The notes beneath the pieces were generated by a model, which was not told the DNA's origin, ran no database searches, and saw only the letters and a list, made by a program, of their open reading frames with translations. This document shows positions 26,811-31,175 of a stretch of DNA of 64,000 bases, in pieces. The DNA is from the human T2T-CHM13v2.0 reference genome, Homo sapiens. The DNA lies in NCBI RefSeq assembly GCF_009914755.1, contig NC_060927.1. The stretch is one strand, 5' to 3'. Position 1 is the first letter of the stretch. Every line of letters begins with the position of its first letter. Position numbers and translations under genes: made by a program.

Positions 26811-28129
26811 CTGAAAGGTGATGCACAGTAGAAATACTTTTTAATGTAGCCAATCCTGTTTTTAAAATTCCTACATAATCTTTCTAAAAACTCCACATTG
26901 ATATAAATTCTTCCTGCTATTTGTATCCTGATCTGATACACAAATTCATTTAGAATATGGTGATGTATAGAGACATAAGTCCCTTTTATCCACATAAAAA
27001 TATCTATCAATTTGACTCATCCTAATTTTTACAAAATTAAATGTAATATATTGACACACAGAATAACTGACAATAAAAGCATATAATTCTCAAATTGTTG
27101 TACCATATGATCGATCTATTTTATCAATATTGCTTTGATACTTTGAATTTCAATCCTAAATATTTTTAAGGAAATAAGAAAAATTAATTTTCCAAGGGCA
27201 CTTATTGGATATACTTAACTTAAAACCCAATACTTCTGACATTAAAGAATGATGACAAATCACAAGGGGGAGTGCTAATGCTGAACAAGAGCGAAACTCC
27301 TGGGCAGATACTCCCTCTACAGAAGTGCTGAGTATTTTTACAGCAGCCCTGGAATTGGGTGGAGGCCTGTTGGGACACAACTCTGCTAGTATGTTACCAG
27401 GCCTAAGACACTTGGTAACTTTCACTTATTTAGGAATTTCCTCCTGGCTTGGTAAAAAATTTTCCTAGTAGATTAGGGGGGAAAATCTTATCTATTTATG
27501 AAAATCACAACCAATCCACTCAGTTGAAAAGACACACATGCAAATAAAAAAGAAAAGAAAAATCAAACAACAATTAAGTGCAAAAATATGCAACAAATTA
27601 TGAGATGGAAATTAGGGGAGTTAATTTTAACTATTCAAAAACAAGATAAGTGCCACAAAAGAAACAAACAACAACAAAAAAACAGCTCATGGGTAAGGCA
27701 AAGGAGCTCTTCCTCTTCCCTTCCTAAACAACTCAGTCCTAAAGCAGAACATGGTAGGTATCTCTGCCATGAGGGAAAGAGAGCCGTATTGACCAGGGAG
27801 GCGTGTCAGAGCTTATGTAAGGTAAGGTGGACATCTACATGCAGATAGTGGCCTACTGTGGAACTGCTGGAGCCCAAATGTGGTGAGCAATGTATACATG
27901 TGTGGGGATTATTTGGTTTCAGTTCACAGAGCCCAGGAAGCACAGACAGGTAGCCTGATGAGTAGCATCAAAGACAGAATGAGTTGAGGAGGTTGTCACA
28001 ATGTGGGACCACCTGGCATAAGGTGTCAGAGCAGAGAAATGAGGGTATCTCCATGGAGAAGTACCCTGGAGTAGGGTAAGCACACAAGCAGGGTAAGGAG
28101 AGCACTCATGTGAGGCTTGACCTGGTGTT

Positions 28130-30283
28130 GAGAGTCAGAGCCCAAAAAGGGGAAGATGGCACCCACCTGGAGATGTGGTCTAGTGGGACAGAGTAACCTG
28201 AATGAGACAGGAGGGTATCCATGGGGGTGGGGGTGGGGGGTCAATCCAACAAGAAGAATCAGAGAGTGAGCAGGGTAAGGAGGGTATCCATGCAGAAGGG
28301 AAGCCAGGTGTAGAATGTCAGGGCCCAGTGGGGATGAGAAAACTATTAGCTTGGGGGACAAAGTTGCAGCAGAGTCCTAGCCAGAGCAATCAGAGAAGAG
28401 AAAGAAATAAAGAGCATGCAAATTGGTAATGAGGAATTTAAACTGTCACTGTTTGCTGATGACATCATATACCTAGAAAACCTTAAAAACTCATCCAAAA
28501 ACCTCCTAGAACTGGTAAATGAATTCAGCAAAGTTTCCGAATACAAAATTAATGTACACAAATCAGTAGCTCTCCTATACACCAACAGCAACCAAGCTGA
28601 GAATCAAATCAACCCCTTTTACAATAGCTGCAATACATAAAATACTAAGGAATATACTTACTCAAGGAGGTGAAAGACCTCTACAGGGAAAATGACAAAA
28701 CACTGCTGAAAAAAATCACAGACGACACAAACAAATGGAAACACATCCTATGCTCATGGATGGGTAGAGTCAATATTGTAAAAATGACCATACTGCCAAA
28801 AGCAATCTACAAATTCAACGCAATTCCCATCAATGCCCTCCTTACACTGCTTGTTCCCATCATTCGTCACAGAACTAGAAAAAACAATCCTAAAATTCAT
28901 ATGGAACCAAAAAAGAGCCTGCATAGCTAAAGTAAGACTAAGCAAAAAGAACAAATCTGGAAGCAATACATTATCTGCCTTCAAACTACACTGTAAAGCC
29001 ATAGTCATCAAAACAGCATGGTACTGGTATAAAAATAGGCATATAGACCAATGGAACAGAACAGAGAACCCAGAGATAAAGCCAAATGCTTACAGTCAAC
29101 TGATCTTCAACAAAGCAAACAAAAACATAAAGTGGGGAAAAGACACCCTATTTAACAAATGGTGCTGAGATAATTGGCAAGCCACATGTAGAAGAATGAA
29201 ACTGGATCCTCATCTCTCATCCTTTACAAAAACAAACTCAAGATTAATCAAAAACTTAAATCTAAGACCTGAAATCATAAAATTTCTAGAAGATAACATT
29301 GGAAAAAACCCATCCAGGCATAAACCTAGGCAAAGACTTCATGACCAAGAACCCAAAAGCAAATGCAACAAAACAAAGATAAATAGATGGGACTTATTTT
29401 GCTTCTGTACAGCAAAAGAAATAATCAGCAGAGTAAACAGACAACTCACAGAATAGGAGAAAATCTTCACAATCTATACATCCAAACAAAGGACAAATAT
29501 CCAGAATCTATAAGGAACTTAAATCAGCAAGAACAAAATAAACAATCCCATCAAAAAGTGGGCTAAGGACATGAATAGACAATTCTCAAAAGAAGATATA
29601 CAAATTGCCAACAAACATTAAAAAATGCTTAACATCACTAATTATCAGGGAAATGCAAATCAAACCCACAATGCACTAGTACCTCACTCCTGCAAGAATA
29701 GCCATAATCAAAAAATCAAAAAATAATAAATGTTGGTGTGGATGTGGTGAAAAGGGAATACTTTTACACTGTTGGTAGAAATGTAAACTAGTACAACCAC
29801 TATGGAAAACCGTACAGAGATTCCTTAAAGAACTAAAAGTAGATCTACCATTTGATCCAGCAATCCCACTACTGGGTATCTACCCAGAGGAAAGGAAGTC
29901 ATAAAAAAAAAAAAAAGATTCTTGCACATGCATGTTTATAGCAGCACAATGCACAATTGCAAAAATATGGAACAAGCCCAAATGCCCATCAATCAATGAG
30001 TGAAAAAAAAAAAATATATATATATATAGTTGTATGTGTGTATATATATATTTGTCCCCCATGCTAATACTTTTCTCATCTCCCCTGGGCCCTGACATTC
30101 TACACCTGGCTTCCCTTCTGCATGGATACCCTCCTTACCCTGCTCACTCTCTGATTCTCCTTGTTGGATTGACCCCCCACCCCCACCCCCATGGATACCC
30201 TCCTGTCTCATTCAGGTTACTCTATCCCACTAGACCACGTCTCCAAGTGGGTGCCATCTTCCCCTTTTTGGGCTCTGACTCTC
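28130..30283. repeat. 233-bp inverted repeat (arms 28130-28362 and 30051-30283)
   Basis: Manual alignment: 8 mismatches, no indels. Also seen as near-identical ORFs on opposite strands (28202+/29993- and 28026-/30034+). Confidence 0.97.
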
Positions 30284-30686
30284 TGTATATATATACACAC
30301 ACACACACACACACCGTGGAATACTACTCAGCCATAAAAAGGAATGAAATAAAGGCATTCAGAGCGCCCTAGATGGAATTGGAGACCATTATTCTAAAGT
30401 AACTTAGGAATGGAAAACCAAACATCATATGTTCTCACTCATAAGTGGGAGCTAAGCTATGAGGATGCAAAGACATAAGAATGATACTATGAACTTTGGG
30501 AACTCAGTGGGGAAAGGGAGGGAGGGGGTGAGGGATAAAAAGACTACATATTGGGTACAGTGTACATTCCTCGTGTGATGGGTATATCAAAATCTCAGAA
30601 ATCATCACTAAAGAACTTATTCATGCAACCAAACACCACCTATTCCCCAAAAACCTTTTGAAATAAACAAAAAACCTAAAAAAAAA
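28375..30686 (+). mobile_element. 5'-truncated L1PB-like LINE-1 (ORF2 3' part, 3' UTR, A tail) with a 15-bp TSD
   Basis: ORF2 peptides ([54 protein letters not shown]); L1PB-type 3' UTR; TSD aaagttgcagcagag at 28360-28374 and 30687-30701. Confidence 0.92.
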
Positions 30687-31175
30687 AAAGTTGCAGCAGA
30701 GATGCAGCATTGATTACTAACAGAGGTATTGATTAAATCAGTTAATAAAAAATAATTTAATATATGAGTGTGTATATATACATGCATTTACATACACACA
30801 CACACACACACACACACATACATACACACACACACATCCTAGCTTTGTCCACTTGAGAGGGTCTAAAAGCAATGATATCTCAATATCAATAAGCACACCA
30901 AGTGCCCAGATCTTGTCTTCTAAATCTTATTCTCTGCTAAAAAGAACAAAGGCTTTTTAGAGAAATGGCTGGTTCTAGGGCTTGGGAAGAGAAAATACAA
31001 GATGATCTGGAACCCAAGAGAATGGAAAACATGTCCACACAAAGACGTATACACAAATGTGGACAGTAGCATTATTCATAATAACCAAAAGTGTAAACCA
31101 TCCAAACCTGCATCAAAAGGTGAATGGATAGACAAAATGTAGTATATCCACATGGAATTTTTTTTTTTTTTTTGA

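What the first reader, a model, noticed from the sequence alone, without database searches (positions are those of the whole stretch)
28130..30701. L1 insertion that captured an inverted 233-bp copy of its own 5' flank, ending at the endonuclease nick
Seen: the L1PB-like element (28375-30686, TSD aaagttgcagcagag) is interrupted at 30051-30283, inside its TA/CA-rich segment. The interrupting sequence is the reverse complement of 28130-28362, the DNA immediately 5' of the insertion. The copied segment stops 3 nt into the TSD, and gtatatatata occurs on both sides of the insert. Established: in TPRT the first nick is on the bottom strand at the TSD 5' boundary, and L1 RT can switch templates. Inference: the nascent cDNA jumped from L1 RNA onto the bottom strand of the 5' flank, copied it until the template ended at the nick, then returned to L1 RNA. 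DENND6A pre-mRNA has the same polarity and is an alternative template. This differs from twin-priming inversion and 3' transduction, because target-site flank is embedded, inverted, inside the element.
Basis: partly seen in the sequence, partly recalled or inferred. Interest (0 to 1): 0.82.

Follow-up and report, generated by a model that had tools for sequence, protein, structure and literature searches.

The report
Inverted flank copy inside old L1
A 233-base inverted copy of the DNA just upstream of an old L1 retrotransposon really does sit inside that L1, but it looks about four times younger than the L1, so it is probably a later small inverted duplication and not a by-product of the L1's own insertion.

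Summary
Bases 30051-30283 are the reverse complement of 28130-28362 (225 of 233 identical, no gaps). The copy lies inside a 5'-truncated L1 that has a perfect 15-bp TSD. The donor ends 3 nt into that TSD. The genome holds no other match to the insert. Three things are new. (1) The insert is flanked by an exact 12-bp duplication, has no microhomology at either junction, and hit a 22-bp perfect palindrome. That L1 site has grown into a TA/CA microsatellite in 24 of 54 sister copies. (2) The L1 differs from its family majority at 7.3% of sites. Arms as old as the L1 should show 28-32 mismatches; they show 8 (P<=5e-6). Without gene conversion the copy is about a quarter of the L1's age. (3) L1 insertions with inverted duplication of the 5' flank, and small inverted duplications unrelated to insertions, are both in print. 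My odds: later inverted duplication at a fragile palindromic microsatellite 0.55, with the match to the old nick a 0.1-1% coincidence. Co-insertional template switch followed by about 30 Myr of concerted evolution 0.38. No primate genome was available. Orthologous loci would settle the question.

The parts
28130..28362 (+). Donor arm: unique, G-rich 5' flank of the L1 (54% GC, (TGGGGG)3 at 28222-28239). Its right end lies 3 nt inside the TSD.
   Evidence: It continues leftwards into similar degenerate repeats (D4, D10, D16), so the flank copy is the original.
28360..28374 (+). 5' target-site duplication of the L1 (AAAGTTGCAGCAGAG). The inferred first nick is on the bottom strand between 28359 and 28360 (5'-CTTT/GT).
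   Evidence: (D17, 15 of 15). The nick position is inferred from the TPRT model.
28375..30050 (+). L1 part a: ORF2 from the RT motif region to near its C-terminal end, decayed, ending in A12 (30003-30014) and a TA tract.
   Evidence: 110 of 1484 judged columns differ from the family majority.
30039..30050 (+). Left copy of the 12-bp direct duplication that flanks the insert.
30051..30283 (-). Inverted copy of 28130-28362 (225 of 233 identical). Both junctions are blunt, with 0 nt of microhomology.
30284..30295 (+). Right copy of the 12-bp direct duplication, followed by (AC)10 at 30295-30314.
30296..30689 (+). L1 part b: end of ORF2, 3' UTR, AATAAA at 30662-30667 and a 12-A tail at 30678-30689.
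   Evidence: 23 of 349 judged columns differ from the family majority.
30687..30701 (+). 3' target-site duplication.
   Evidence: D17

Best explanation
This is a later, L1-independent small inverted duplication. The L1 inserted by ordinary endonuclease-dependent TPRT roughly 45 Myr ago. Inside it, the naturally palindromic ORF2 site (family form about GTGG(TG)TATATATACACC) drifted into a perfect 22-bp (TG)3(TA)5(CA)3 palindrome flanked by A, TA and CA runs. Roughly 10 Myr ago (4-21 Myr) this hairpin-prone site broke or stalled a fork. Cuts staggered by 12 nt lay almost symmetrically about the palindrome centre (-7/+5). The lesion was repaired by copying 233 nt from the same chromosome 1.7 kb upstream in inverted orientation, by fold-back or template-switch synthesis after resection, or by capture of such a copy. 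Both ends were then joined without homology and the stagger was filled in, which gave the 12-bp duplication. On this reading, the donor ending at the L1's old nick site is a coincidence. Shown here: the structure, the uniqueness of the donor, the age gap, the palindrome and the family-wide instability of the site. Inferred: the break, the polymerase and the order of joining.
For: (1) Clock. This L1 differs from the majority state of 29 sister copies at 110 of 1484 and 23 of 349 judged columns (7.4% and 6.6%), equal to the family medians of 7.5% and 6.8%. The star-phylogeny estimate is 6.4-7.6%. The best other copies in the genome are only 81-88% identical. Two copies evolving freely since the L1 insertion should differ at 28-32 of 233 sites; 8 are seen, P=1e-7 to 5e-6. 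The arm divergence is 0.25 (0.11-0.48) of that expected. G>A and C>T changes are balanced (23 v 27), so no editing burst inflates the L1's age. (2) The 12-bp duplication is 12 of 12 identical. (3) Acceptor site. It is a 22-bp perfect palindrome. The same L1 site carries 50-826 nt of simple repeat in 24 of 54 sister copies, so it is unstable after insertion. (4) Size and class. 277 inverted duplications outside mobile-element insertions, median 284 bp, are the commonest inversion class in 1,019 humans (passages of PMC12350158). (5) The outermost 37 bp of the distal arm edge have 0 mismatches. My arithmetic gives P of about 0.006 if the edges had escaped conversion since the L1's insertion.
Against: The donor's proximal end falls within 3 nt of the L1's first-strand nick. 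For a donor placed at random within 2-5 kb this has a chance of 0.14-0.35% per landmark, perhaps 0.4-1% counting other boundaries a reader would have flagged. Both junctions are blunt, whereas most polymorphic inverted duplications show 1-15 bp of microhomology. Four of the 8 mismatches lie in the 34 bp nearest the TSD. That fits an old, unconverted edge, though error-prone synthesis next to a junction would also explain it. No orthologous sequence was available, so timing rests on the clock alone.
Confidence: 0.55

Rival explanations
1. Co-insertional capture. During TPRT the growing minus-strand cDNA had copied the L1 3' part up to the AU-rich palindromic site. It frayed off the RNA over 12 nt and switched to the bottom strand of the 5' flank. 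That strand would have been exposed as a 5' flap or as a cleaved resection fragment reaching 230 nt back from the nick. ORF2p copied it to its 5' end at the nick, added AAA without a template, then re-engaged the L1 RNA where the duplex ended. This re-copied 12 nt, and the insertion finished normally. A variant places the switch in second-strand synthesis, snapping back onto the resected flank. The two arms then evolved in concert by gene conversion for about 30 Myr before starting to diverge.
For: The donor begins exactly at the discontinuity made by the L1's own endonuclease, and its polarity fits. Its length of about 230 nt fits a resection gap; this is inference. The blunt junctions fit template jumping or ligation. 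The 12-nt overlap resembles the short duplications seen at twin-priming junctions, 10 of 32 in passages of PMC11702581. ORF2p copies DNA templates, adds bases past a template's 5' end and jumps templates (passages of PMC10830420). De novo L1 insertions with inversion or inverted duplication of reciprocal-end DNA, capture of cleaved ssDNA flaps, and template switching at the primary RT end are reported. Only 1 mismatch lies in the central 139 bp and 7 in the outer 94 bp (post-hoc P=0.009). Gene conversion among neighbouring Alus within about 10 kb is reported (passage of PMC8230782).
Against: 8 mismatches are seen where 28-32 are expected. Concerted evolution is documented here only for kb-scale palindromes and for diverged Alus and LTRs (listings; passage), not for a 233-bp pair. 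A-priori tests of mismatch clustering are not significant (P=0.105 and 0.139). The distal 37 bp of the arm carry no mismatch. With the canonical nick at 28359/28360, the AAA cannot be templated by the flap and must match the genome by luck. The switch point coincides with the L1's most unstable post-insertional site. 0 of 54 sister copies carry a non-simple insert at that site.
Confidence: 0.38
2. RNA-templated origin. The template would be DENND6A pre-mRNA (bottom-strand sense), or a plus-sense read-through transcript, copied either during TPRT or later by L1 machinery acting in trans.
For: A 12-bp duplication lies within the usual TSD size of ORF2p-made breaks, 12-18 bp in passages of PMC11702581.
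Against: An RNA running through the site has no reason to end at 28362. There is no poly(A) beyond the genomic AAA. There is no AG splice acceptor before the TTT, and no AATAAA upstream of 28362 on the plus strand. The implied nick sites at the acceptor (TATA/CA or TACA/CA) are poor matches to the recalled TTTT/AA preference.
Confidence: 0.04
3. Assembly artefact, or a copy from another locus.
For: None found.
Against: The only two matches in the 3.1-Gb assembly are the insert itself (100%) and its own flank (97%). The 8 mismatches between the arms argue against a mis-join of identical reads.
Confidence: 0.01

Closest known systems
Small germline inverted duplications (277 events outside mobile-element insertions, median 284 bp, in 1,019 long-read human genomes; PMC12350158, passages read)
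   Same: The size (233 bp), the inverted local copy, no long homology at the breakpoints, and independence from a contemporaneous insertion if the clock is taken at face value.
   Different: Most of those show 1-15 bp of microhomology; here there is 0 at both junctions plus an exact 12-bp duplication. The donor end also coincides with an old L1 nick site. I did not see their donor-to-acceptor distances (supplements not read).
[quoted passage not shown]
   Same: An inverted copy of the DNA on the 5' (reciprocal) side of an L1 insertion, starting next to the ORF2p-made break, with the TSD preserved.
   Different: There the copy lies between the flank and the L1's 5' end, arises from a small hairpin with 2-bp homology, and is made with the insertion. 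Here it lies 1.7 kb inside the L1 between two colinear L1 parts, has no homology, and looks about four times younger than the L1.
Twin priming (5'-inverted L1)
   Same: There are two synthesis tracts that overlap by a few nucleotides on the L1 template (12 nt here; 1-10 bp duplications in 10 of 32 cases).
   Different: The inverted piece is flank, not L1. Both L1 parts are in the same orientation.
3' and 5' transduction
   Same: Non-L1 genomic sequence lies within the bounds of an L1 insertion.
   Different: Transduced DNA comes from the source locus, is colinear and lies at an end of the element. Here it comes from the target site, is inverted and is internal.
Arm-to-arm gene conversion in palindromes (Y and X chromosome palindromes; listings and abstracts)
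   Same: This is the process needed to keep inverted arms alike if the copy is as old as the L1.
   Different: The documented arms are kilobases to megabases long and more than 99% identical. Here the arms are 233 bp with a 1.7-kb spacer and 96.6% identical.

Membership tests
Endonuclease-dependent L1 (LINE-1) insertion | ORF2 homology | tested here: met
   A frame at 28857-29168 matches ORF2p residues 834-936, E=8e-42. RVT_1 scores 26.3 bits, below the cut-off.
Endonuclease-dependent L1 (LINE-1) insertion | Poly(A) tail and flanking TSD of 7-20 bp | tested here: met
   12 A at 30678-30689. TSD 15 of 15.
Endonuclease-dependent L1 (LINE-1) insertion | T-rich bottom-strand nick site (recalled consensus 5'-TTTT/AA) | tested here: inconclusive
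   The bottom strand reads 5'-CTTT/GT at the TSD's 5' boundary. This is a degenerate match. The 3 A's make the exact nick ambiguous between 28359/60 and 28362/63.
Twin-priming 5' inversion | The 5' L1 segment is inverted relative to the 3' segment | tested here: not met
   Both L1 parts are on the plus strand and colinear with sister copies.
3'/5' transduction | The extra sequence derives from the flank of a source element and is colinear and terminal | tested here: not met
   The only other match in the genome is the target-site flank itself, inverted and internal.
L1-associated inverted duplication of the reciprocal end (Mendez-Dorantes et al.) | Inverted copy of the 5'-side genomic DNA starting at the ORF2p-made break | tested here: met
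   The donor ends at 28362, within 3 nt of the bottom-strand nick and 12 nt from the top-strand nick.
L1-associated inverted duplication of the reciprocal end (Mendez-Dorantes et al.) | Made in the same event as the L1 insertion | tested here: inconclusive
   The clock says no: 8 mismatches against 28-32 expected. Gene conversion could mask the age. Orthologues were not available.
L1-associated inverted duplication of the reciprocal end (Mendez-Dorantes et al.) | The copy lies at the 5' junction, with short homology at the inversion junction | tested here: not met
   The copy lies 1676 bp inside the L1. There is 0 nt of homology at both junctions.
Replicative/repair small inverted duplication | Local inverted copy of a few hundred bp, not tied in time to a mobile-element insertion | tested here: met
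   233 bp, donor 1.7 kb away, arm divergence 0.25 of that expected for the L1's age.
Replicative/repair small inverted duplication | Microhomology of 1-15 bp at the junctions (the majority of cases) | tested here: not met
   No shared base at either junction in either direction of synthesis.

The most novel reading that the evidence does not exclude
The copy was made during the L1's own integration. ORF2p (or the second-strand polymerase) left the L1 template at an AU-rich palindrome and copied the resected or flapped 5' flank up to the endonuclease nick. It then returned to the L1 template, embedding target-site DNA inside the element. The resulting 233-bp inverted repeat was then kept alike by gene conversion for tens of millions of years. 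This would be a fixed germline fossil of template switching onto target DNA with nick-precise resolution. It would also be one of the shortest inverted repeats known to evolve in concert.
Probability: 0.38. Interest if true: 0.65.

Novelty: new member of a known kind. Interest (0 to 1): 0.4.

Why it matters
If the copy is later, the locus is an ordinary example of a common class of structural variant. It is still useful as a warning that a striking boundary coincidence is not evidence of shared origin, and as an example of a palindromic L1 ORF2 site acting as a microsatellite nursery and break site. If the copy is co-insertional, it would show in a fixed germline element what has so far been seen only in induced and tumour insertions. 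That is, L1 integration can duplicate and invert the resected target flank, here inside the element with its end defined by the endonuclease nick. It would also show that arms as short as 233 bp can escape the molecular clock, which matters for dating duplications by arm divergence. In either case the locus places a 233-bp near-perfect hairpin in a DENND6A intron.

Tried and rejected
- No primate genome is reachable. The genome tool states that the window's assembly has no relatives held, so the orthologue test could not be run.
- A better donor elsewhere was looked for and rejected: 2 of 2 matches are local.
- A recently retro-copied old L1, which would reconcile the ages, was rejected. The best non-self match of the L1 is 85% over 1526 nt and 88% over 360 nt. 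Only 40 of 20162 and 40 of 4981 first-look candidates were scored.
- An APOBEC-type editing burst inflating the L1's age was rejected: G>A 23 against C>T 27 in the 5' part, 6 against 6 in the 3' part.
- A slow local clock was rejected: this L1's divergence equals its family's median.
- Microhomology was sought at both junctions for both possible nascent strands; none was found.
- Fold-back of the TSD overhang as primer was rejected. There is no usable self-complementarity in GTTGCAGCAGAG, and L1 part a lies between the TSD and the copy.
- A later L1-mediated retro-insertion in trans was rejected: no poly(A), poor nick sites, and no reason for an RNA end at 28362.
- Derivation from a twin-primed element by inversion between the arms was rejected. 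It needs an extra 245-bp duplication.
- Mismatch clustering as a signature of gene conversion was tested. The post-hoc window gives P=0.009, but the two a-priori statistics give P=0.105 and P=0.139, so the result is not conclusive.
- One paper look-up by a recalled id failed. The rate of 0.17% per Myr was taken from a passage of 10.1101/2025.02.02.635956.
- Searches for print precedents were. None listed an L1 with target flank embedded internally. Supplementary figures of the Mendez-Dorantes preprint (their S9, S10) could not be seen and may hold such a case.

Full report
**1. What is there**

The window is T2T-CHM13 chr3:57,660,001-57,724,000 (hub note; one search places it at G000:C3). Bases 30051-30283 are the reverse complement of 28130-28362. 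The match is 233 nt with no gap and 8 mismatches, 96.6% identical. A search of the whole 3.1-Gb assembly with 30040-30295 returned two matches only: itself, and 28130-28362 on the opposite strand (E=1e-104). Among the 25 longest of 107 inverted pairs in the window, no other pair exceeds 89%. I take those, from their length, to be Alu pairs (not tested).

**2. The host element**

28375-30689 is a 5'-truncated L1 in plus orientation.
- A frame at 28857-29168 matches human ORF2p residues 834-936 of 1275 (E=8e-42).
- The first frame holds the RT motif region (RVT_1, 26.3 bits, below Pfam's 29.6 cut-off).
- AATAAA lies at 30662-30667 and 12 A's at 30678-30689.
- AAAGTTGCAGCAGAG flanks the element at 28360-28374 and 30687-30701, 15 of 15.
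- The bottom strand reads 5'-...CAACTTT/GTCC at the TSD's left edge. This is a degenerate form of the T-rich nick site; the consensus is recalled, not tested.

Because the TSD starts with AAA next to the A-tail, the nick could lie anywhere from 28359/60 to 28362/63. The donor arm ends at 28362, inside that zone.

**3. The acceptor site**

I took two anchors either side of the insert and located them in the 58 sister L1 copies fetched from the genome. 54 of the 58 have both anchors. The median distance between them is 44.5 nt; in this copy it is 321 nt. The L1 is therefore colinear across the insert.

The family sequence at this point, roughly GTGG(TG)TATATATACACC, is itself palindromic. It has grown into 50-826 nt of TA/CA/GT-type simple repeat in 24 of the 54 copies. 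None of the 54 carries a non-simple insert there.

In this copy the insert is exactly 233 bp, flanked by an exact 12-bp duplication (30039-30050 = 30284-30295). Removing the insert and one duplicate leaves a perfect 22-bp palindrome. The duplicated block spans -7 to +5 around its centre. Neither junction shares a single base with the sequence that would have continued, whichever strand is taken as nascent.

**4. The clock**

- The best other copies in the genome are 81-85% identical for the 1526-nt 5' part and 85-88% for the 360-nt 3' part. Only 40 first-look candidates were scored in each search.
- A star-phylogeny estimate (mean distance to 29 copies, minus half their mean pairwise distance) gives 6.4-7.6% for this copy.
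- Counting columns where this copy departs from a majority of at least 60% among the others gives 110 of 1484 and 23 of 349, together 133 of 1833 or 7.3%. The same statistic has family medians of 7.5% and 6.8%.
- G>A and C>T changes are balanced, so no editing burst is involved.

Two sequences diverging freely since the L1's insertion should differ at 28-32 of 233 sites. They differ at 8, and the binomial P of 8 or fewer is 1e-7 to 5e-6. The arm divergence is 0.25 (95% range 0.11-0.48) of that expected.

At 0.17% per Myr (a rate quoted in a passage of 10.1101/2025.02.02.635956), the L1 is about 45 Myr old and the arms about 10 Myr apart per arm (about 4-21 Myr). The perfect TSD is not unusual for that age (P=0.11-0.15).

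**5. Two live readings**

(a) Later event. The palindromic microsatellite broke or stalled replication. The lesion was repaired by inverted copying of 233 nt from 1.7 kb upstream, and a 12-nt stagger was filled in.

This fits the clock, the identity of the 12-bp duplicates and the family-wide instability of the site. It also fits a common class of variant: 277 inverted duplications outside mobile-element insertions, median 284 bp, in 1,019 humans (passages of PMC12350158).

It does not explain why the donor ends at the L1's nick. The chance is 0.14-0.35% per landmark for a donor placed at random within 2-5 kb, perhaps up to 1% if other boundaries would also have been noticed. Blunt junctions are also atypical of that class.

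(b) Co-insertional event. The geometry is exactly what a switch onto the nick-bounded 5' strand of the flank would give.
- The minus-strand cDNA carries plus-sense flank, so its template is the bottom strand, whose 5' end is the nick.
- A 230-nt flap or resection fragment would set both donor ends (inference).
- The 12-nt overlap would be the frayed AU-rich end of the RNA:cDNA duplex (inference).
- ORF2p is reported to polymerise on DNA templates, to add bases past a template's 5' end and to jump templates (passages of PMC10830420).
- De novo insertions with inversion or inverted duplication of reciprocal-end DNA, captured ssDNA flaps and template switching at the primary RT end are reported (PMC11702581 passages; version 2 of the same preprint, passages and section 9).

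This reading must add concerted evolution of two 233-bp arms for about 30 Myr. Conversion among neighbouring Alus within about 10 kb is reported (passage of PMC8230782). The well-documented arm-to-arm cases are kilobase-scale palindromes (listings).

The mismatch pattern is ambiguous.
- One mismatch lies in the central 139 bp and seven in the outer 94 bp (post-hoc P=0.009). Two a-priori statistics give P=0.105 and 0.139.
- The 34 bp nearest the TSD hold 4 mismatches, which is the level expected for the L1's age.
- The 37 bp at the other edge hold none. My arithmetic gives P of about 0.006 at that level.

With the canonical nick, the AAA must be untemplated and match the genome by luck.

**6. 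Weighing**

The boundary coincidence favours (b) by perhaps 30-250 fold. The clock favours (a) by perhaps 10-50 fold, given my rough guess that a 233-bp pair stays in concert that long in 0.1-10% of cases. The acceptor site and the intact 12-bp duplicates favour (a) a few-fold. The blunt junctions favour (b) a few-fold. The base rates of the two classes are poorly known. These factors are my judgement, not computed results. I put (a) at 0.55, (b) at 0.38, an RNA-templated origin at 0.04, and an artefact or other origin at about 0.01-0.03.

**7. Comparison and novelty**

Under either reading the kind is in print: small inverted duplications, or L1-associated inverted duplication of the reciprocal end. 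Under (b) two things would be new. One is the internal position between two colinear L1 parts with a nick-precise end. The other is concerted evolution of so short a repeat.

I did not see the supplementary figures S9 and S10 of the preprint, which may already show such an architecture. My searches listed no paper describing one.

**8. What would settle it**

Orthologous loci from apes and monkeys would settle it. No such genome was reachable here.

Noticed in passing
window 29996-30316, and loci L004-L062 at the homologous site: The ORF2 site of this L1 family, about GTGG(TG)TATATATACACC and itself a 16-bp palindrome in many copies, has expanded into TA/CA/GT/GATA-type simple repeats of 50-826 nt in 24 of 54 sister copies. 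It acts as a recurrent microsatellite nursery inside old L1s.
   Followed up: partly
window 28130-28362 with 30051-30283: In DENND6A pre-mRNA (minus strand) the two arms can pair into a 233-bp duplex with a 1.7-kb loop (duplexfold -496 kcal/mol). This is a non-Alu long dsRNA in an intron and a candidate ADAR substrate. It was not checked against editing data.
   Followed up: no
window 30765-30836: Just 3' of the L1's TSD lies a second TG/TA/CA-type tract and an (AC)23 microsatellite. It resembles the L1-internal tract (families D1, D2 and D5; TRF row). Its origin was not examined.
   Followed up: no
window 27800-28362: The 5' flank is G-rich, single-copy in the genome, and built of degenerate internal repeats at spacings of 69, 182 and 239 nt (D4, D10, D16). 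It has a (TGGGGG)3 run at 28222-28239, a possible G-quadruplex. No family was assigned.
   Followed up: no
window 28202-28429 (+) and 29993-30211 (-): The two arms give mirror-image stop-free frames of 75 and 72 aa with no Pfam match for the flank frame. These are by-products of the duplication, not genes.
   Followed up: partly
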